From Candidatus Omnitrophota bacterium (lineage in GTDB: Bacteria; Omnitrophota; Gorgyraeia; Zapsychrales; JAHFFX01): DNA of 34,157 nt. The notes under the pieces are model-generated. The model saw only the letters and a program-made list of their open reading frames with translations. It searched no databases and was not told where the DNA came from. The position numbers and the translations under genes are program-made. Positions 7,416 through 21,299 of this stretch are shown one piece after another (position 1 is the first letter of the stretch; every line of letters begins with the position of its first letter). The stretch spans positions 1-34,157 of the forward strand of contig JAHFFX010000003.1 in assembly GCA_023247755.1 (NCBI GenBank), read 5' to 3'.

Positions 7416-7433
7416 GGGAAATTTTTCTTAAAC

Positions 7434-7582
7434 GAGGGACGTTGGACGTCCGCGCGACCCCGCCGTTGGCGGGGTCGCGCTCAGACGTAGGACGTAAGAA
7501 ATTGAACGTCGCTACATTCGACAACTCACGTCCGACGTCCCAGCGAACGAAGCGAGCGGACGTCACACGTCCAACGTCCTTC
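7434..7582. repeat. Gene-less inverted heptamer-array element (unit GGACGTN / NACGTCC) between mreC and mreD
   Basis: Left GGACGTT GGACGTC [insert] AGACGTA GGACGTA; right CACGTCC GACGTCC [insert] GACGTCA CACGTCC AACGTCC; outer ends 7434-7449 and 7567-7582 are 15/16 inverted matches. Confidence 0.85.
7452..7480. repeat. Perfect 13-bp GC-rich palindrome GCGCGACCCCGCC-GTT-GGCGGGGTCGCGC (REP-like) inside the heptamer array
   Basis: Arms 7452-7464 and 7468-7480 are exact reverse complements; TC occurs on both sides (7449-7450 and 7481-7482). Confidence 0.85.
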
Positions 7583-14461: not shown

Positions 14462-17332
14462 TCATCTTACATAAGAGGCGGCCTTTATATTAACGATACA
14501 GCGGTCGCACAAAGCGGGGTGCTCTTGGTCCTTGCCGACGTAGGTGCTGTAATTCCAGCAGCGGCTGCATTTTTCGCCGGCGGCGGGGTGGACCTGGATC
14601 TCCAGCTGCGGGAAAGCTTCCCCAACAGGGCTGGAGACCGACTTGACTTCTTCTATATTGACCTGCGAAACGATAAAAAAGAACGGCAGAAATTTTTCGT
14701 GTTTGGAAAGCTCTTTGGCGTCGCGCGCCGAGGCGGTCCTAAACACCACCCGCGCCTCCAGTCCCCCGCCGATCTTTTCGGCACGCCGCAACTCGTCCAG
14801 GGCCTTCATCACGTACGGCCGCAGTTCGATGAGGTATTTCAACTCCGCGTGGCCGTCCATCGATTTCCAGGCATCCAGGGCCGGCAGCCATGGCAGAAGA
14901 TGTACGCTTTCAACAGCTTTCATGCTGGCGTCCTTGGCCATCGCCTGGAACACTTCTTCGGCGGTAAAGCTCAGGATCGGGGCGATCGCCCGCACCAGCC
15001 AATTCAAAATAAAGTAAAGAGCGGTCTGCGCACTGCGCCTTGCGGGTGAATTAGCCGCAGAAGTATACAGTCTGTCTTTTAAGATGTCAAGATAAATGGC
15101 GGACAGGTCGTCGTTGCAGAACGAATAAATGCTTTTGAAGGCCTTTTCGAAATCATACCGCTCGTAGCTCTTCCCCACCAGGTCGATCGTCCAGCCCAAA
15201 CGCTCCAGGGCCCAGCGGTCCAGCAGGTCCAGGCGCTCGAAAGGCAGCGCATGGCGCTCGGGATCAAAACCATCGAGGTTGCCCAATATATAGCGGAAGG
15301 TGTTGCGGATCTTGCGGTAGGCGTCCACCAGCCGGTCCAGGATCTCCTTGGAGATGCGGACATCTTCGTTGTAGCTGCTGGAGGCGACCCAAAGCCTGAG
15401 GATCTCCGCGCCGCTCTGATTGATGATGTCCTGCGGGGCGATGACGTTCCCAAGGGACTTCGACATCTTGCGGCCCGCGCCGTCGACGACAAATCCGTGC
15501 GTGAGCACGGCCCGGTACGGCGGAGCGCCCTCGATCGCCATCGACGGGATGATCGAAGACTGGAACCACCCGCGGTGCTGGTCAGAGCCTTCCAGATAAA
15601 GGTCCGCCGGCAGCGGCCGTTTCATATGGGACTTGAAGACCGCCTGGTGGCTGACGCCGGAATCGAACCACACATCAAGAATGTCGTGGGTCTTCTGGAA
15701 ATCGTTTTTGCCGCAGTCCTTGCATTTGAATCCCGGCGGCAGCAGATCCTTCAAATCCTTCTTAAACCAAACATCGCTCCCCTCTTTCCGGACGAGGTCG
15801 GCGTAATGTTCAATGACCTCCACAAACAATTTATGTTCCCCTTTACATCCGCCGCAGGAAAGCGCGGGGATCGGCACACCCCACAGCCGCTGGCGGGATA
15901 AACACCAGTCGGGACGGGTCGCCAGCATCCCCAGCATGCGCTCTTTGCCGGAAGCAGGGATCCAGGCGACCTCTTCGACGGACTTTTTGAGCTTTTCCCG
16001 TAATCCGTCTTTGTCCACCGCCAGGAACCATTGTTCCGTCGCGCGGAAGATGATCGGCTTCTTGCAGCGCCAACAATGCGGATAGGAATGGCTGATGTTC
16101 TCCTGAGCGAACAAAATTCCCCGGGAATTCAGATCCTCGATGATCTTTTCATTGGCTTTGAAAACATATTGACCGGCATAAGGCCCGGCCGCCTCGGTAT
16201 AAACGCCCTTATCGTTGACAGGCATGAGGACTTCGAGACCGTATTTCAATCCCGTCTTAAAATCATCCTGCCCGTGCCCGGGTGCGGTATGAACCAAACC
16301 TGTGCCGTCTTCTTTGGAGACATAATCTGCCATTACAACTCTGCAATTCTGCCTAAGATCAAAAGGATGTTTATAAGTCAACTTCGTTAAGAGATTACCG
16401 TCGACTTCTACGAGCGGCTTTTTGAATTCCGATATGCCCCCCTTGGCCAAAACACTTTGAGCTAATGAGCTTTCTAAAATTAGAATCTCCGAGCCCACAT
16501 CGAAGAAGCCATATGAGTAAGAAGCAATCAAAGCTGGGCGGTTGACATCTTGTTGTTCATAAAGCAAGGGATGAACCGCCACTGCGACATTCGCCAAAAG
16601 AGTCCATGGCGTCGTTGTCCAAATTAAAAGTGAAACGGGTTTGCCCAACGGTAACTCTTTAAAAACTTCAGGATTATTCACCCTGAACTTCACATACACC
16701 GATGGAGAGGTGTGGTTCTCGTATTCCACTTCCGCTTCCGCAAGTGCGGTCTCATCATTCGGGCACCAATTGACCGGCTTTAACCCGCGATAAATGTAAT
16801 CTTTCTTGCGCAGTTGTGCCAAAGATTTCAGGATCCAATGCTCGTAATCCGGCGCAAGCGTCAGATACGGGTTCTCCCAATCGCCGAGAACGCCCAGCCG
16901 CTTGAACTCTTCCCTTTGGATACCGACGAACTTCATCGCGTATTCGTGGGCCTTTTTTCGGAAATCAACGACGTCCACTTTGGATTTATCGGTCTTGAGG
17001 TCCTTGAACATCTGATGCTCGATGGGAAGGCCGTGGCAGTCCCACCCCGGGACGTACTCCGCATCGAGCCCTTGCATGGAACGGAACTTGACGATCATGT
17101 CCTTGAGAATTTTATTGAGGGCGTGGCCGATATGGATGTGGCCGTTGGCGTACGGCGGCCCGTCGTGCAGGATGAAGGCGGGTTTGCCTTTGGACTTGGC
17201 GCGGATCTTCTGGTACAGCTTGAGCTCCTCCCATTGCTTAAGGAGTTGCGGCTCGCGCTGCACCAGATTCGCTTTCATCGCGAAATCGGTCTTGGGGAGA
17301 TTGAGCGTATGTTGATACTTGTTGTCAGACAT
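14462..17332 (-). CDS. ileS: Isoleucyl-tRNA synthetase (type 1)
   Basis: [58 protein letters not shown]-terminal Zn finger CSRC..CDRC. Confidence 0.97.
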
Positions 17333-17344
17333 TTTATTCTTGGG

Positions 17345-17420
17345 GGACCCAGTTACCCAGCGACCCAGCGTCCCAGTAAATGCTTTTCCTGGGTTACTGG
17401 GTCTCTGGGGTCCTGGGACG
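17345..17420. repeat. Gene-less inverted octamer-array element (4x NNNCCCAG, 12-nt spacer, 4x CTGGGNNN) between mtnP and ileS
   Basis: GGACCCAG TTACCCAG CGACCCAG CGTCCCAG - TAAATGCTTTTC - CTGGGTTA CTGGGTCT CTGGGGTC CTGGGACG. Confidence 0.9.
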
Positions 17421-17430
17421 CCCTTCAGTT

Positions 17431-18291
17431 TTATTTCAAATACTTCCCAATGATCATCTGCAAATCCTTCTTCGCCTCTTCCGGCATGTGGTCCTTGGGG
17501 GTGATGATGGCGTACTTGAGCGCGTCGGCGGCGCTGAAGCCCGACAGCTGCCCGATGCGCGGGATGGCCTTCTTGAGGACTTGCCTGGAGTTCTCGACAT
17601 TCTTGTTGAGGTTGGCGATGATCATCTCAACGGTGACCGATTCGTGGGACGGATGCCAGCAGTCATAATCGGTGACGGCCGCGAGCGTGGCGTAGGAGAT
17701 CTCCGCTTCGCGCGCCAGCTTGGCCTCCACCATGTTGGTCATACCGATGATGTCCATTCCCCAGCTGCGGTAAAGGTTCGATTCGGCCTTCGTCGAGAAT
17801 TGCGGGCCCTCCATGTTGATGTACGTGCCCTTGGGATGGACCCGCACCCCCAATTCCCGGCAGCTGTCCACCAGGATCGCAGCGATCTCGGGACTCACCG
17901 GATCGGCAAGCGAAACGTGCGCCACGATGCCGTTGTCAAAAAAAGTGCTCGGCCGCGCCTGATGCGTGCGGTCGACGAACTGGTCCGGCACGACGAAATC
18001 CATGGGCGCAAGCTCATCTTTGAGACTGCCGCAGGCCGACACCGAAACGATCGCCTCCACGCCGAGCTTCTTCATGCCGAAGATGTTCGCCCGGAAATTG
18101 ATCTTGGAAGGGGAAATGGTGTGGTAGTGGCCGTGCCGGGGAAGGAAGACCACCTCGATGCCTTCCAGCGTTCCCAATTGGAACTTATCCGAGGTCAGTC
18201 CGAACGGGGTGCCGATGGCGACCGCATCCTGCTTTTCCAGACCTTCGATGTTGTAAAGACCGCTTCCGCCGATGATGCCGACCTTGGCCAT
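17431..18291 (-). CDS. mtnP: S-methyl-5'-thioadenosine phosphorylase (MTAP / PNP family 2)
   Basis: GIIGGSG, PRHG, SACGSL, EGPQFST, GMT, TDYDCW; true start ATG 18291 after GAGGAGG (the ORF-track extension reads through the repeat). Confidence 0.93.
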
Positions 18292-18314
18292 AGCTACCTC
18301 CTCAGATGAGAATG

Positions 18315-18388
18315 GGTGACCAGTGACCAGGTCATCCGTCACAAGTTACCGGAAAACCGCTGGTGACCGTTGACTGGTCACGGGTCAC
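18315..18388. repeat. Gene-less inverted heptamer-array element (unit GTGACCA / TGGTCAC); inverted empty copy of the element at 19195-19690
   Basis: GTGACCA GTGACCA G GTCATCC GTCACAA GT - spacer - TGGTGAC CGTTGAC TGGTCAC GGGTCAC; contains the proC stop codon. Confidence 0.9.
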
Positions 18389-19173
18389 TGCTTTGACAAC
18401 TCTTCTGCGCGCTTGCGCGCCGCCTGCAGCGCTTCCGCGATAATATCGTCGAGCTTATACTTGATGAATACGTCCGTGGCGGCCTGGGTGGTCCCGCCCT
18501 TGGAGGTGACCTTCGCGCGCAAAGCACCGGGCTCTTCCTTTTTCCGGTCGAGCAAGAGAACCCCGCCCAGGAACGTTTTACGCACCAGCTGCCGCGCCAG
18601 GTTCTCGTCCAGCCCCAGCTTTTTGGCGCCGCTGATGAGGCTTTCCATGAAAAGATAGACGTACGCGGGCCCGCTGCCGGAGACCGCGGTGACCGCATCG
18701 ATAAGATCTTCCGGAACGACCACGGTTTCGCCGACATGCTGGAAGATCTTCATGGCCGCATCGAGATCCCCTCTTTTGGCGAAGCGTCCCGCCGCCAGCG
18801 CCGTCATGCCTTCGCCGATCATGGCGGGCATGTTGGGCATGGTGCGGACCACCCGGGTCTTTTCGGGAAGACTTTTTTCAAGGAACCCGGAAGTGATCCC
18901 GGCCGCGATCGATACGACGAGCTTGGTCTTGTCCACGAGAAAGAACATCTCCTGCAGGGCCTCTTCGACGTCCTGGGGCTTGACGGCAATAATGACCACC
19001 TGGGATTGTTCGACGAGCTCTTTAACGCTGCAGGGTTTCAGCTTGTAGGTCTTCTGAAGATATTGCTGACGCGCGGGATCCTTCTCGCTCACCAGGACCT
19101 TGTAATTCTTGCGGATCCGCTGGAGGATCGCTTCCCCCATGTTCCCGCCGCCGATGATACCGATGGTTGTCAT
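18385..19173 (-). CDS. proC: Pyrroline-5-carboxylate reductase
   Basis: IGGGNMGEA, IIAVKPQ, SIAAG, RTMPN, TAVSGSGPAY, VTSKGGTT. Confidence 0.96.
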   Translation of the reverse strand: MTTIGIIGGGNMGEAILQRIRKNYKVLVSEKDPARQQYLQKTYKLKPCSVKELVEQSQVVIIAVKPQDVEEALQEMFFLVDKTKLVVSIAAGITSGFLEKSLPEKTRVVRTMPNMPAMIGEGMTALAAGRFAKRGDLDAAMKIFQHVGETVVVPEDLIDAVTAVSGSGPAYVYLFMESLISGAKKLGLDENLARQLVRKTFLGGVLLLDRKKEEPGALRAKVTSKGGTTQAATDVFIKYKLDDIIAEALQAARKRAEELSKQ

Positions 19174-19194
19174 GTGGTTGTTCCTTTTGTCAAG

Positions 19195-19223
19195 GTGCCC
19201 CGTGACCAGTCACAAGTGACCAG
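19195..19223. repeat. Heptamer array at the 3' end of the four-helix-bundle gene
   Basis: GTGCCCC GTGACCA GTCACAA GTGACCA G, directly abutting the TAA stop. Confidence 0.9.
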
Positions 19224-19583
19224 TTAATTCGAAGAAAAACTTTTATGAAATTTCCAAAGCAATGCGCCGGTTTCTGTTCTTATCGCTTCTAATTCTTCGT
19301 AAATCTCACGGCTGATATACTCTAACTTAAAACAAAACTCGAGCAAGTATTCGACCTCTCTCAGTGATCCTAATGCAATGTTAGAAAACTGTTTGATTTC
19401 ATTTCTATTCTGCCGGCCGATACCCTCAACGATATTGGTGGGGATGGAAATTGCCGCTCGGCGAAGTTGTGAAGTCAACCCGTACATTTCTTCTCTAGGA
19501 AAACTTCGGGTGGATAAATAGATTTTATACGCCAGTTGATCTGCTTTTTGCCAAGCCATTAGATTTTTATACGCCTTTTCCAT
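19224..19583 (-). CDS. Four helix bundle protein (23S rRNA-IVP family, PF05635/TIGR02436-like; bAvd-related fold)
   Basis: YKNLMAWQKA...FPREEMYGLTSQLRRAAISIPTNIVEG...IALGSLREVEY signature; AGGAG RBS. Confidence 0.93.
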   Translation of the reverse strand: MEKAYKNLMAWQKADQLAYKIYLSTRSFPREEMYGLTSQLRRAAISIPTNIVEGIGRQNRNEIKQFSNIALGSLREVEYLLEFCFKLEYISREIYEELEAIRTETGALLWKFHKSFSSN

Positions 19584-19658
19584 TTCCTTATCTCCTGGTT
19601 ATGGTTTCCTGTTAATAATTCAGGAAAAGGGTAGTTTTTCCTCCTTTTAACACCTACG

Positions 19659-19690
19659 ACTTGTGACTGGTGACTTGGTCACTGGTCACC
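19659..19690. repeat. Heptamer array upstream of the four-helix-bundle gene
   Basis: AC TTGTGAC TGGTGAC T TGGTCAC TGGTCAC C; ends 7 nt from the yggS stop. Confidence 0.9.
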
Positions 19691-19697
19691 AATCGGA

Positions 19698-20390
19698 TTA
19701 CTCTTTAAAGATCGCCGTCCCGATCCGTACCATGTTGGCGCCTTCGGCGATCGCGATCTCAAAATCATGGGACATCCCCATGGAAAGGTACTTCATTTGG
19801 ACGCCGGGCTTGTCCGGAAAGCTGCGCTCGATGTTTTCTTTCAACCGGCGCAGATCGCCAAAGCATGCCGAGATAACTTTTGCATCCTCGGTAAAAGGGG
19901 CCATCGCCATGAGTCCCAGGATCCTCACCTTCGGCAACTTCAGGACCTCTCCGATGAGCGGCAGGGCCTCTTCGGGAGCGATACCGTACTTTTGGGTCTC
20001 GCGGGCCGTGTTGACCTGCATTAAGATATCCGCAACGCGCCCGGCTTGGGCCGCCTGGCGTTCGATCTCGCCCGCCAGCTTTAGCGAATCAACGGATTGG
20101 ATCAGGTCGCAGATATTCAGGGCAGCCTTGACCTTGTTGGTCTGCAAATGCCCGATCAGATGACGAGTGAGCTTCCGACCGGCTGGATTAACCAGCGGGA
20201 ATTTCTTTTGGGCTTCCTGGACCCGGTTCTCGGCGATATCGTTGATCCCCGCGGCGACCGCCTGATCGATATCTTCGATCGAGGCGAATTTGGTAACGCC
20301 TACCAGGGTAATCTCTTCGGGATGTCTTCCGGCTTTGGGGCAAATGGCGGCGATACGGTCCCGAATTCTCGCCACATTGTCGCGAATCAT
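19698..20390 (-). CDS. yggS: Pyridoxal phosphate homeostasis protein YggS/PROSC
   Basis: LVGVTK, ENRVQE, HLIGHLQTNK, GLMAM, LSMGMSHDFEIAIAEGANMVRIGTAIF; start is either ATG 20396 or ATG 20390. Confidence 0.95.
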   Translation of the reverse strand: MIRDNVARIRDRIAAICPKAGRHPEEITLVGVTKFASIEDIDQAVAAGINDIAENRVQEAQKKFPLVNPAGRKLTRHLIGHLQTNKVKAALNICDLIQSVDSLKLAGEIERQAAQAGRVADILMQVNTARETQKYGIAPEEALPLIGEVLKLPKVRILGLMAMAPFTEDAKVISACFGDLRRLKENIERSFPDKPGVQMKYLSMGMSHDFEIAIAEGANMVRIGTAIFKE

Positions 20391-20396
20391 TGCCAT

Positions 20397-20425
20397 AAGC
20401 TATCACAAAAGGTTGGGGGCGTCAA
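20397..20425 (-). promoter_or_regulatory. Promoter of the yggS...ileS operon, probably giving a leaderless yggS mRNA
   Basis: TTGACG (20425-20420)-N17-TAGCTT (20402-20397) with extended TGn; ATG 20390 lies 7 nt downstream and has no SD. Confidence 0.55.
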
Positions 20426-20447
20426 TCCTTCGACTGCGCTCCGGATT
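20424..20447. repeat. REP-like imperfect palindrome AATCCTTCGACTGCGCTCCGGATT
   Basis: AATCC/GGATT ends; the reverse strand reads ATCCGGAGCGCAGTCGAAGGAT, resembling recalled CCTGAGC-N3-GTCGAAGG type REP units. Single copy in the window. Confidence 0.45.
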
Positions 20448-20538
20448 GTTCTTCTGCATGTCGTTCCCCGCAGGGCACGCTGAAGTTGCCGCTTCTTTCA
20501 ACAAAAAATGGTGCGGGTCATCCCGCCCCAGATAGATA

Positions 20539-20566
20539 TTGACATCCGCCATGGGGGGAATAAAAT
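20539..20566 (+). promoter_or_regulatory. Sigma70-type promoter of the regulator-Ehr operon
   Basis: TTGACA-N16-TAAAAT, 49 nt upstream of ATG 20616. Confidence 0.6.
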
Positions 20567-20615
20567 ACAAAGACGTTTTCCCTAAAATTGGATTTTCCCC
20601 CAAAAAAACAATACG

Positions 20616-21299
20616 ATGAACTTAAAGATCAGGGATATTGCCGAATTGCTGCAAGTCTCGGAGCAGACCGTCTATCGCTGGATCCAGGAAAAAAAGATCC
20701 CCGCCTACAAGATCAATCATCAGTACCGCTTTAACAAGCTCGAGATCAACGATTGGATCCTGAAGAACCGCCTGGCCGTTTCGAAAAGAATCTACGACTT
20801 CAGCGCCGCCGGAACACCCGTCAGCCTCACGGACCTCCTGAAAAAAGGGGGCATTTTTTACGACAACGGTGGATCTTCGGTCGCAGAAATCATCCGCAAT
20901 GCCGGGGAGACGCTTCCCTTGCCGCCGGGCGCCGACCGAAAGACCGTGATTTACTCCCTCTTGCAGCGGGAGGAGATGATGCCCACCGCCATCGGTCGTG
21001 GGATCGCCATCCCGCATCCCCGCAACCCCCTTATCGCGGACATCGAGCATGAAAGCGTTTCGATTTTCTTGTTAAGAAATAAAATCGATTACAAAGCAAT
21101 CGACGGTGAACCGGTCCACACGCTCTTCATCGTGCTAAGCGCCAACCCGCAACGCCATCTAGAAGCCCTGGCCAAGATCTCCTTTTTGTGCCAACAAGAC
21201 GACTTCATCGGCCTTTTAAGAAAACCGGCGTTAGCAGAAGAAATTCTCGGTTATATCGAAAAAAAAGAAGCGGCCTGGCTTAAGAAAGACCCGAGATGA
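20616..21299 (+). CDS. Excisionase-type HTH + PTS EIIA (Ntr/Fru-type) fusion regulator
   Basis: IRDIAELLQVSEQTVYRW..IPAYKI..QYRF HTH_17-like domain; EIIA domain with RE..PTAIGRGIAIPHPR phospho-His motif. Confidence 0.9.
   Translation: MNLKIRDIAELLQVSEQTVYRWIQEKKIPAYKINHQYRFNKLEINDWILKNRLAVSKRIYDFSAAGTPVSLTDLLKKGGIFYDNGGSSVAEIIRNAGETLPLPPGADRKTVIYSLLQREEMMPTAIGRGIAIPHPRNPLIADIEHESVSIFLLRNKIDYKAIDGEPVHTLFIVLSANPQRHLEALAKISFLCQQDDFIGLLRKPALAEEILGYIEKKEAAWLKKDPR

What the first reader, a model, noticed from the sequence alone, without database searches (positions are those of the whole stretch)
19195..19690. Candidate undescribed system: four-helix-bundle (IVP/bAvd-like) gene enclosed by inverted heptamer arrays, with gene-less relatives in housekeeping operons
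Seen: a roughly 42% GC, 119-aa gene lies co-directionally between yggS and proC, bracketed by arrays of GTGACCA-type units that can pair and loop the whole gene out of the mRNA. Three gene-less elements of the same design occur in this window (18315, 17345, 7434), always between co-directional essential genes. Known: this family was first found in 23S rRNA intervening sequences that are excised from a flanking stem, and it is structurally related to the oligomeric nucleic-acid-binding DGR accessory protein Avd; its function is unknown. Inference: a transposase-free mobile or 'mRNA intervening sequence' system in which an oligomeric protein recognises periodic repeats, or in which the stem is processed or recombined. 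I cannot verify from here whether this association has been published.
Basis: partly seen in the sequence, partly recalled or inferred. Interest (0 to 1): 0.85.

Follow-up and report, generated by a model that had tools for sequence, protein, structure and literature searches.

The report
Repeat-bracketed IVP gene cassette in operons
A small gene of unknown function sits between two housekeeping genes, boxed in by mirror-image runs of 7-letter repeats; the same design surrounds this gene family in many bacterial phyla, which points to an unrecognised kind of selfish genetic element.

Summary
Window 19224-19583 (-) encodes a 119-aa PF05635/TIGR02436 protein (39% GC in a 56% GC genome). It lies between yggS and proC, bracketed by inverted GTGACCA-type arrays. 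The three gene-less hairpins (17345, 18315, 7434) also exist.

The design is general:
- By eye, all 6 IVP genes of this genome have inverted arrays, each with a different unit.
- 25 of 29 loci in related genomes and 66 of 77 loci across about ten phyla score above controls.
- Only 2 of 605 other small ORFs do.

Arms are about 4.3 units long, with period 7 or 8. The unit sequence tracks the protein sequence. The gene is co-directional with both neighbours in 82 of 95 loci.

The site is not fixed. Only 1 of 30 yggS-proC junctions in the order holds the gene, and other junctions hold hairpins of unrelated unit families.

No reverse transcriptase or RAYT was found. RNase III was not found in 38 of 41 genomes of the order.

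Best reading: a promoter-less, sporadically gained, operon-riding cassette. Its arms pair in the transcript and are probably the binding site of the pentameric protein. The hairpins are its non-coding derivatives. How it moves is unknown. I found no paper that links this gene family to such repeats.

The parts
19224..19583 (-). IVP gene: 119-aa PF05635/TIGR02436 four-helix-bundle protein, 39% GC
   Evidence: Sequence match to the chain of entry 2GSC (5 chains), E 4.5e-18.
19658..19690 (-). 5' arm in the sense of the gene: about 4 GTGACCA/GTCACCA-type heptamer units. It starts 7 nt after the yggS stop codon.
   Evidence: (TRF period 7, 4 copies).
19194..19223 (-). 3' arm: the reverse-complement heptamer array. 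It starts directly after the IVP stop codon and ends about 20 nt before the proC start.
19633..19651 (-). Inner inverted repeat, leader side. It pairs with 19223-19241 (19 nt, 79% complementary).
   Evidence: I2; paired in the fold.
19223..19241 (-). Inner inverted repeat, 3' side.
   Evidence: I2.
18305..18395 (-). Gene-less hairpin of the same GTGACC unit family, between proC and the mtnP-like gene.
   Evidence: MFE -40.1 kcal/mol, z -5.2.
17335..17432 (-). Gene-less hairpin of the CCCAG octamer family, 4 + 4 units, with a 12-nt near-palindromic loop. It has a CTGAAGGG 5' terminus and a TCCCCCAAG 3' terminus, and lies between the mtnP-like gene and ileS.
   Evidence: z -5.9.
7428..7575 (-). 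Composite nested hairpin of GGACGT units with a side hairpin, between mreC and mreD. It also begins with CTGAAGG.
   Evidence: (z -9.2).
19698..20396 (-). Upstream host gene, yggS-like (PF01168).
18385..19173 (-). Downstream host gene, proC.
   Evidence: The same gene order is seen at most of the 30 proC loci read from 30 genomes of the order.

Best explanation
The gene belongs to a compact, promoter-less cassette, laid out as:
- a 5' array of about 4 tandem 7-8-nt units
- a short leader with a ribosome-binding site
- the IVP ORF
- the reverse-complement array

This is the general way PF05635 genes are packaged across bacterial phyla; the ORF-bearing 23S rRNA intervening sequences look like a special case.

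The cassette behaves as a selfish insertion. It sits in the short spacers between co-directional genes. It is read through from the host operon. It is gained and lost sporadically. Gene and arms travel together.

The gene-less hairpins are non-coding derivatives that keep the arms, termini and polarity. They have multiplied in this genome.

In the transcript the two arms pair into an imperfect stem of about 30 bp. Its foot lies at the upstream stop codon and about 12 nt before the downstream start, so the cassette is looped out of the operon message.

The same periodic arms are most likely the cognate binding site of the basic pentameric IVP protein. This would parallel its homologue Avd, which grips an RNA stem-loop with all five protomers.

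Shown here: the architecture, its generality, the sporadic distribution, the protein-unit co-variation, and the polarity.
Inferred: pairing in vivo, protein binding, and derivation of the hairpins from cassettes.
Unknown: how copies move. RNase III cleavage, shown for rRNA copies elsewhere, is unlikely in this lineage.
For: Generality:
- By eye, 6 of 6 IVP genes of this genome carry inverted arrays, each with its own unit. By score, 4 of 6 reach IR >= 26.
- 25 of 29 loci from 29 related genomes reach the 99.9th percentile of 3000 random intervals.
- 66 of 77 scorable cross-phylum loci exceed the 99th percentile of 800 in-locus controls. 52 of 80 have exact 5-mer cores at step 7/8 on both sides, against 2 of 800 controls.
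- 14 of 18 of all copies in five genomes of five phyla reach IR >= 26.
- Matched control: 2 of 605 other 90-160-aa ORFs of this genome.

Periodicity:
- Among arms of 24 nt or more, the best period out of 4-12 is 7 in 67 and 8 in 9 of 76.
- 74 of 76 have autocorrelation >= 0.5, against 30 of 1203 control segments.
- Arms span 4.3 units (IQR 3.4-5.2).

Co-variation:
- Mantel r = -0.37, with 0 of 2000 permutations as extreme. Mean unit distance is 1.3 at >= 75% protein identity and 3.6-3.7 below 40%.
- Three protein clades, at least two of them with visibly different units, occupy the same fabH-fabD junction in different genomes.

Sporadic distribution:
- The IVP lies at yggS-proC in 1 of 30 loci. 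Of 28 readable junctions, 19 have spacers of 55 nt or less and 5 hold periodic hairpins of other unit families.
- The mtnP-ileS junction holds four or five different unit families in 13 loci.

Operon riding:
- Both neighbours are co-directional in 82 of 95 loci.
- No sigma-70-like promoter lies on the - strand in 17000-20700.
- The arm starts a median 2 nt after the upstream stop and ends a median 12.5 nt before the downstream start.

Pairing:
- 86% Watson-Crick over 2941 aligned columns.
- Unit-specific variants are mirrored in register: 75%, against 49% when slid by one unit.
- The arm-arm stem closes the fold.

Polarity:
- The G-rich arm is upstream in 73 loci and the C-rich arm in 20.
- The CTGAAGGG terminus of the CCCAG hairpins is 5' in 9 of 9 scorable cases.

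Derivatives:
- 182 arrays, against 10-21 in shuffles.
- 28 CCCAG hairpins with a shared loop and shared termini. The CCCAG-flanked IVP cassette on contig C194 has the same termini.
- Cognate gene-less arrays also occur in a Syntrophus and a Methylohalomonas genome.

Protein:
- pI 9.0, net charge +3 per chain.
- Both solved relatives are deposited with 5 chains.
- Avd binds an 11-bp stem-loop through all five protomers, with flipped-out bases in the crevices between protomers (passages of 10.1101/2023.10.23.563531).
- The Coxiella IVS has tandem heptamers in its 5' region beside a 28-bp terminal stem (passages of PMC4990558).
Against: - No RNA signature: sense-strand G:U-type mismatches number 81, against 68 of the A:C type (p = 0.33). 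Most mismatches are transversions (265).
- Within arrays, mismatches are not concentrated in particular columns (variance 0.81 observed, 0.91 expected, p = 0.09). A 'conserved core plus free spacer' pattern is therefore not general.
- The whole-cassette fold is no more stable than shuffles (z -1.1).
- The ribosome-binding site of proC lies outside the stem.
- Canonical RNase III was not found here or in 38 of 41 genomes of the order.
- Gene-less copies are not an obligatory companion. An IVP-rich relative has only 6 arrays in 300 kb. The Ruminococcus unit occurs only at its own IVP locus.
- The AGTGT hairpin family (12 arrays) has no cognate IVP in this 91%-complete assembly.
- No target-site duplication, exact boundary or strain-level empty site was found.
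- The co-variation and polarity counts are inflated by shared ancestry among loci.
- Gene calls for neighbours came from my own crude ORF picker.
Confidence: 0.6

Rival explanations
1. DNA-level mobile element. The two arrays are terminal inverted repeats made of multiple subterminal binding sites. The IVP oligomer binds them on double- or single-stranded DNA and brings the ends together. Cutting and joining are done by a host enzyme or by replication template-switching at the hairpin. The gene-less hairpins are MITE-like copies mobilised in trans.
For: - The same sequence on opposite strands at the two ends is what a DNA binder would see.
- Each paralogue within a genome has its own unit, which suggests orthogonality.
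- Multi-copy families share termini.
- Gains are sporadic at conserved junctions.
- There is no G:U bias in arm mismatches.
- IVP genes are AT-rich relative to their hosts in 112 of 114 loci, as in imported DNA.
Against: - No catalytic domain is known in the family, and no transposase, RAYT or RT was found nearby or in the genome.
- Strict co-directionality with host operons (82 of 95) and strand polarity are not required by a DNA-only mechanism.
- No target duplications were seen.
- The homologue Avd is documented as an RNA binder.
Confidence: 0.2
2. Host-serving intercistronic hairpins, comparable to REP/BIME elements. The periodic hairpins would be host elements that stabilise or partition operon transcripts or tune coupling between cistrons. 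IVP genes would be unrelated passengers that tend to land in hairpin loops.
For: - The hairpins sit precisely between co-directional genes, with fixed polarity.
- They are far more numerous than IVP genes in this genome (182 arrays against 6 genes).
- Similar paired heptamer arrays in Xanthomonas and Geobacter were read as structural or regulatory elements (passages of PMC4692102 and PMC2700814).
Against: - Unit type follows the protein clade across phyla, not the host.
- Several genomes have the arrays only around the IVP gene.
- Junction occupancy is sporadic, with unrelated unit families at the same site.
- Sampled stretches of IVP-free relatives had 0 arrays in 300 kb and 0 in 100 kb (low power).
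Confidence: 0.12
3. A classical intervening sequence transplanted into mRNA. The stem would be cut by RNase III, releasing the cassette RNA and separating the flanking cistrons, exactly as in 23S rRNA.
For: - RNase III excision at the stem was shown for the Coxiella IVS, whose 5' processing site lies at the first heptamer (PMC4990558, passages).
- Here a stem of about 30 bp is predicted.
Against: - PF14622 and PF00636 find a canonical RNase III in only 3 of 41 genomes of the order, while 33 of 41 carry IVP genes.
- This genome has only a marginal 21-23-bit match inside a 944-aa ORF.
- The stems of the gene-less hairpins are interrupted by internal loops.
Confidence: 0.08

Closest known systems
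ORF-bearing intervening sequences of 23S rRNA (Coxiella burnetii S23p IVS; Leptospira IVS, recalled)
   Same: - Same protein family.
- The ORF is enclosed by terminal inverted repeats that form a stem.
- The Coxiella IVS has tandem heptamers in its 5' region, beside the 28-bp terminal stem.
- It is transcribed only as part of a host transcript and is regarded as selfish (PMC4990558, passages).
   Different: - Here the host transcript is a protein-coding operon, not rRNA.
- The arms are whole arrays of units on both sides.
- Gene-less copies are dispersed through the genome.
- The RNase III that excises the rRNA versions was not found in this lineage.
REPIN-RAYT systems (recalled from the literature; no paper read here)
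   Same: A single-copy gene is flanked by the same short palindromic repeat that is dispersed in the genome as inverted doublets in intergenic spacers. Different gene copies have different cognate repeats.
   Different: - No Y1 transposase (PF01797) is in the genome.
- The flanked gene is a 119-aa four-helix bundle with no known catalysis.
- The repeats are tandem 7-8-nt units rather than one REP hairpin.
Intergenic heptamer and octamer repeat arrays (Xanthomonas GGGAATC, Nostoc/Calothrix heptamers, Geobacter metallireducens 'paired global-regulator sites')
   Same: - About four tandem 7-8-nt units per array.
- Frequent convergent pairs on opposite strands at variable distance.
- Mostly between co-directional ORFs and close to the upstream gene (PMC4692102 and PMC2700814, passages).
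   Different: - Those papers interpret the arrays as G-quadruplex formers or IHF/HU-type regulator sites, and their main texts do not mention the S23/IVP gene family.
- The units here have no G-tracts.
- Whether the Xanthomonas and Geobacter arrays flank IVP genes was not testable: supplements are closed, and the pattern search found no such genome.
Avd of diversity-generating retroelements
   Same: - Homologous basic pentameric four-helix-bundle barrel.
- Avd binds a structured RNA stem-loop next to its own gene through all five protomers (10.1101/2023.10.23.563531, passages).
   Different: - No reverse transcriptase is in this genome.
- The Avd models score below their cut-offs (PF22296 24.5 against 40; NF033474 29.4 against 80).
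- No template or variable repeats were seen.
MITEs
   Same: Short non-coding palindromic multi-copy elements that share ends with a gene-bearing relative.
   Different: No transposase-encoding parent, no target-site duplication identified, and a strict polarity relative to transcription.

Membership tests
PF05635 / TIGR02436 (23S rRNA IVP, 'four helix bundle protein') | Profile score above the curated cut-off | tested here: met
   PF05635 120.3 bits against 33.8. TIGR02436 111.3 bits against 24.
PF05635 / TIGR02436 | Four-helix bundle that assembles into a pentamer | not tested
   Sequence relation only: 2GSC at E 4.5e-18 and 2RLD at E 7.5e-9, each deposited with 5 chains. No structure or oligomer was predicted here.
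Classical 23S rRNA intervening sequence | Inserted in a helix of 23S rRNA | tested here: not met
   It lies between yggS and proC. Rfam finds no rRNA or any other family in the window.
Classical 23S rRNA intervening sequence | Terminal inverted repeats form a stem that encloses the ORF | tested here: met
   General for the family.
Classical 23S rRNA intervening sequence | Excision by host RNase III | tested here: not met
   Cleavage itself is not testable here. The enzyme was not found in this genome (only a marginal 21-23-bit match in a 944-aa ORF) or in 38 of 41 genomes of the order.
DGR accessory protein Avd | Profile score above the cut-off | tested here: not met
   PF22296 24.5 against 40. 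NF033474 29.4 against 80.
DGR accessory protein Avd | Reverse transcriptase in the element | tested here: not met
   PF00078 has 0 matches in the whole 91%-complete genome.
REPIN-RAYT | Y1 (RAYT) transposase gene flanked by the repeat | tested here: not met
   PF01797 has 0 matches in the genome.
REPIN-RAYT | Dispersed inverted doublets sharing sequence with the flanks of the gene | tested here: met
   The CCCAG, GTCAC and GGACGT hairpin families share units with the IVP cassettes on contigs C194, C184 and C134.
MITE | Target-site duplication and a transposase-encoding parent | tested here: inconclusive
   Termini are defined by comparing copies, but no duplication was recognisable. No close strains were available. 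The parent encodes no known transposase.
Intergenic heptamer/octamer SSR pairs (Xanthomonas, Nostoc, Geobacter type) | About 4 tandem 7-8-nt units, in convergent pairs between co-directional ORFs | tested here: met
Intergenic heptamer/octamer SSR pairs | G-tracts able to form quadruplexes | tested here: not met
   The GTGACCA and GTCACxx units have no GGG runs. Some other families do (TAGGG).

The most novel reading that the evidence does not exclude
IVP proteins are the sequence-specific drivers of a previously unrecognised, transposase-free class of mobile elements found throughout bacteria. Each pentamer reads its own 7-nt (sometimes 8-nt) repeat code on the arms that bracket its gene. It maintains or spreads the cassette and its gene-less hairpin derivatives. 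The long-unexplained excess of intergenic heptamer arrays (Xanthomonas GGGAATC, cyanobacterial heptamers, Geobacter 'paired sites') and the ORF-bearing rRNA intervening sequences would then be products of this one system.
Probability: 0.35. Interest if true: 0.92.

Novelty: new variant of a known kind. Interest (0 to 1): 0.8.

Why it matters
PF05635/TIGR02436 is a very common bacterial gene family. It occurs in 33 of 41 genomes of this order, with 1-12 copies each, and in every phylum sampled. No function is known for it. It has so far been discussed only as an oddity of rRNA intervening sequences or as the cousin of DGR Avd.

Three results change that picture. The gene is almost always packaged between inverted arrays of a cognate 7-nt unit. 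It rides inside operons. It is accompanied by gene-less hairpin families.

This has practical consequences:
- It gives the family a concrete, testable molecular partner: its own arms.
- It offers an origin for abundant intergenic heptamer repeats that have been interpreted in unrelated ways.
- It suggests a pentamer that reads a periodic nucleic-acid code, which could be of practical use.
- It shows that annotators and repeat or CRISPR finders should expect these arrays next to 'four helix bundle protein' genes.

Tried and rejected
Explanations rejected:
- Chance or simple slippage. Arrays are about 10-fold over Markov shuffles. The flank signal is seen in 2 of 605 matched ORFs, against most IVP loci.
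- DGR remnant. No RT was found and the Avd models score below their cut-offs.
- REPIN-RAYT. No Y1 transposase was found.
- Known RNA family. Rfam gave 0 matches.
- Anti-phage defence component. PADLOC gave 0 families.
- Intrinsic terminators. No hairpin on the - strand of the operon is followed by a T-run.
- Other genes as cargo. rpmF (contig C4) and a BamE-like gene (contig C79) looked as if they sat inside the arms. Each is in fact flanked by two complete separate hairpins.

Dead ends:
- No RNA holder was listed for the stretch.
- The metagenome scan with ProC found nothing closer than 57% identity, so there was no strain-level empty site and no target duplication.
- Testing whether the Xanthomonas GGGAATC arrays flank XCC0516 failed. 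The pattern was found in 0 of 401 sampled gammaproteobacterial genomes, and the papers' supplements are closed. Those supplements (repeat lists of PMC4692102; Tables/Figures S3-S6 of PMC2700814) may bear directly on the link.
- Array density in IVP-free against IVP-rich relatives pointed in the expected direction (0/300 kb and 0/100 kb, against 6/300 kb and 2/100 kb), but the power was low.
- A weak extra HMM domain upstream of proC in L061 was not in the Pfam search, so I disregard it.
- The GTCAC-type arm after mtnP in G005 runs into a contig end. No IVP could be confirmed there.
- The idea that terminating ribosomes melt the stem foot and unmask the downstream ribosome-binding site fits the median geometry. 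It does not fit this locus, where the proC site lies outside the stem. I keep it only as a possibility.

Literature. Six searches found no paper linking PF05635/S23p/'four helix bundle protein' to flanking tandem-repeat arrays outside rRNA. Subscription journals are not covered.

Full report
WHAT IS AT THE COORDINATES

The ORF 19224-19583 on the - strand encodes 119 aa. It matches PF05635 (23S_rRNA_IVP) at E 5e-35 and TIGR02436 ('four helix bundle protein') at 111 bits. The Avd models score below their cut-offs. Its closest solved relatives by sequence are 2GSC (XCC0516, E 4.5e-18) and 2RLD, each deposited with five chains.

ORF GC is 39%, against 56% for the genome. The gene lies in a run of - strand genes: yggS-like, IVP, proC, an MTA-phosphorylase-like gene, ileS. 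No sigma-70-like promoter and no terminator-like site was found on that strand inside the run.

GTGACCA occurs 10 times in the window against 2.5 expected, and 7 of those are at this cassette and the next intergenic hairpin. The arms 19194-19223 and 19658-19690 are complementary in several registers. They close the predicted RNA fold, although the whole 521-nt fold is no more stable than shuffles (z -1.1).

They lie between co-directional genes and fold far better than shuffles, with z of -5.2 to -9.2.

THE SAME DESIGN SURROUNDS THE WHOLE FAMILY

The window is a whole-contig piece of a 2.42-Mb, 232-contig, 91%-complete assembly. That assembly has six PF05635 genes. By eye all six are bracketed by inverted arrays of 7-8-nt units, each with a different unit: ACGTGAxx, GTGACCA, xxxCCCAG, GCTGCTxA, GGACGTx, TAGGGCxx. 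My scores catch 4 of 6 at IR >= 26 and 3 of 6 by the strict core test.

In the order, 33 of 41 genomes carry the family, with 1-12 copies each. The wider tests gave:
- One locus from each of 29 relatives: 25 reach the 99.9th percentile of 3000 random intervals. 15 pass the strict test, against 11 of 20000 random intervals.
- A scan of one genome per species with a closer alignment returned 80 loci. They come from Planctomycetota, Omnitrophota, Atribacterota, Nitrospirota, Bacteroidota, Desulfobacterota, Campylobacterota, Gammaproteobacteria, Firmicutes and candidate phyla.
- Of those, 66 of 77 scorable loci exceed the 99th percentile of 800 in-locus controls. 52 of 80 pass the strict test, against 2 of 800 controls.
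- Taking every copy in five genomes of five phyla, 14 of 18 score. Two of the four misses are pseudogenes.
- As a matched control, only 2 of 605 other 90-160-aa ORFs of this genome score. The one reaching IR >= 28, which I inspected, is a gene lying between two separate hairpins.

ANATOMY

Over 115 loci, 95 give an arm alignment.
- Arms are a median 30 nt, or 4.3 units.
- Among arms of 24 nt or more, the best period out of 4-12 is 7 in 67 and 8 in 9 of 76. 74 of 76 are strongly periodic, against 30 of 1203 control segments.
- Arms are 86% Watson-Crick. Unit-specific variants are mirrored in register: 75%, against 49% when slid by one unit.
- The upstream arm starts a median 2 nt after the stop codon of the preceding gene. 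The downstream arm ends a median 12.5 nt before the next start.
- Both neighbours are co-directional with the IVP gene in 82 of 95 determinable loci.
- The sense-strand upstream arm is G-rich in 73 loci and C-rich in 20.
- IVP genes are more AT-rich than their surroundings in 112 of 114 loci.
- The proteins are basic, with median pI 9.0.

These counts use my own crude ORF picker, and related loci are not independent.

GENE AND ARMS TRAVEL TOGETHER, AND THE SITES ARE NOT FIXED

Unit distance falls as protein identity rises. Mantel r is -0.37, with 0 of 2000 permutations as extreme. Mean unit distance is 1.3 at >= 75% identity and 3.6-3.7 below 40%. The same unit types recur with the same protein subclades in different phyla (listing). 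Divergent paralogues within one genome have different units.

At the fabH-fabD junction, three protein clades are found in different genomes (33-47% identity between clades); at least two have visibly different units.

The yggS-proC-mtnP-ileS order is seen at most of the proC loci read. ProC was found in 39 of 41 genomes. The junctions look like this:
- yggS-proC: the IVP cassette is present in 1 of 30 loci, the window itself. Of 28 readable junctions, 19 have spacers of 55 nt or less, 5 hold periodic hairpins of other unit families, 2 hold other palindromes and 1 holds other sequence.
- proC-mtnP: hairpins in 3 loci and an IVP gene in 1.
- mtnP-ileS: CCCAG, GTCAC, CCAGTT or CAGATG hairpins in different genomes, and short spacers in others.

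This is the pattern of repeated gain and loss, not of a fixed locus.

THE GENE-LESS HAIRPINS

This genome has 182 arrays of three or more cores at step 7/8, against 10-21 in shuffles. Thirty-four pairs are inverted, mostly with loops of 12-70 nt.

The CCCAG family has 28 hairpins, two of them identical at contig ends. They share a near-palindromic loop and asymmetric termini (CTGAAGGG... / ...TCCCCCAAAG). The CCCAG-flanked IVP cassette on contig C194 has the same termini.

By my ORF picker, 12 of the 28 hairpins lie between co-directional ORFs. Nine of those have one recognisable terminus, and in all nine it is on the 5' side. The window's own copy agrees.

Three of the four largest families share their unit with a resident IVP cassette. 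The AGTGT family has none in the assembly.

Cognate gene-less arrays also occur elsewhere:
- A Syntrophus genome has 21 matches, against 2 for the control.
- A Methylohalomonas genome has 93 matches against 1. There a GGTGATT family resembles the arms of its second, stop-containing IVP copy.

The companion arrays are not obligatory. A Ruminococcus unit occurs only at its own IVP locus, and IVP-rich relatives have few extra arrays.

WHAT IT IS NOT

- No reverse transcriptase and no Y1/RAYT transposase is in the genome.
- Rfam and PADLOC give nothing.
- Canonical RNase III was found in only 3 of 41 genomes of the order with either Pfam model. This genome has only a marginal match inside a 944-aa ORF.
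- So the RNase III excision demonstrated for the Coxiella rRNA IVS (PMC4990558, passages) can hardly be the point of the stems here.
- Arm mismatches show no G:U preference on the sense strand: 81 against 68.
- Mismatches within arrays are not column-specific.

MECHANISM

I commit to the following reading. This is a selfish, promoter-less cassette that lives in intercistronic spacers and is transcribed by read-through. Its arms pair in the transcript, so the insert is looped out at the junction of the two host cistrons. The arms are also the cognate site of the IVP pentamer.

The second point is inferred from four things:
- the protein-unit co-variation;
- the distinct units of paralogues within one genome;
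- the constant 7-nt period and about 4-5 units per arm despite complete turnover of the sequence;
- the precedent of Avd, whose five protomers grip an 11-bp stem-loop through flipped-out bases held between protomers (10.1101/2023.10.23.563531, passages).

A DNA-level reading is the main rival, in which the arms act as transposon-like ends. How copies move is unknown.

PRIOR WORK

The pieces are in print, and I read passages only:
- the ORF-bearing rRNA IVS and its heptamers (PMC4990558);
- the homology to Avd (PMC10053308);
- heptamer arrays in convergent pairs between co-directional ORFs in Xanthomonas and Nostoc, read as G-quadruplex formers (PMC4692102);
- 'paired' octa- and heptanucleotide arrays in Geobacter metallireducens, read as regulator sites (PMC2700814).

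None of the main texts connects the arrays to this gene family. Six searches found no paper that does. Supplements were closed and subscription journals are not covered.

VERDICT

I rate it a new variant of a known kind: the intervening-sequence element outside rRNA, with cognate periodic arms and non-coding derivatives. Interest is high.

Noticed in passing
Own genome and G001-G040; L241:286-3120 (-): Canonical RNase III (PF14622, PF00636) was found in only 3 of 41 genomes of this order, most of them at least 90% complete. This genome has only a 21-23-bit partial RNase III-domain match in the middle of a 944-aa ORF with no other Pfam domain.
   Followed up: partly
L006:500-1000 (G000:C4) and L240:520-1300 (G000:C79): rpmF (L32) and a BamE-like gene are each flanked on both sides by complete GTCAC-family hairpins. 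In some operons, consecutive intercistronic junctions are all occupied.
   Followed up: yes
G041 (Methylohalomonas), e.g. L244:1095-1545 and L249:1500-1830: GGTGATT heptamer arrays occur at about 50 loci (93 matches against 1 for the control). Some form inverted pairs enclosing 250-400 nt of non-coding sequence, with internal CCCCTTGA..GGGGGAAG hairpins. One such pair lies between convergent genes.
   Followed up: partly
L070:1800-2000; L147/L222 downstream arm; L145/L227 upstream arm: Some arms are greatly expanded on one side only: about 26 TCGTGAA units upstream against 5 downstream, and 12 units downstream against 4 upstream. The arrays therefore also change length, probably by slippage.
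   Followed up: no
G000:C21:10294-10364 and G000:C169:10-80; G005:C50 end (L041): [quoted passage not shown] These repeats seem to break assemblies, so counts in draft genomes are lower bounds.
   Followed up: no
PMC10910872, figure legend: A large CRISPR-association screen lists '23S rRNA IVP' among genes linked to CRISPR arrays. Given the tandem arrays next to nearly every IVP gene, this link may come from repeat finders calling these arrays. That is my speculation and is untested.
   Followed up: no
115 IVP loci: IVP genes are more AT-rich than the DNA 250-1500 nt away in 112 of 114 loci (36% against 47% GC). The gap widens in GC-rich hosts.
   Followed up: partly
L043 (G001), mtnP-ileS spacer: This 'empty' 19-nt spacer reads ATTATTCCCAGATCCCCC before the ATG. 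It resembles a single CCCAG core plus the TCCCCC terminus of the CCCAG hairpin family, and could be a footprint or a coincidence.
   Followed up: no
L042, L048, L039, L058: Other, non-periodic GC-rich palindromes (for example CCCCCGC...GCGGGGG hairpins) occupy the same operon junctions in some relatives. These junctions attract more than one kind of hairpin element.
   Followed up: no
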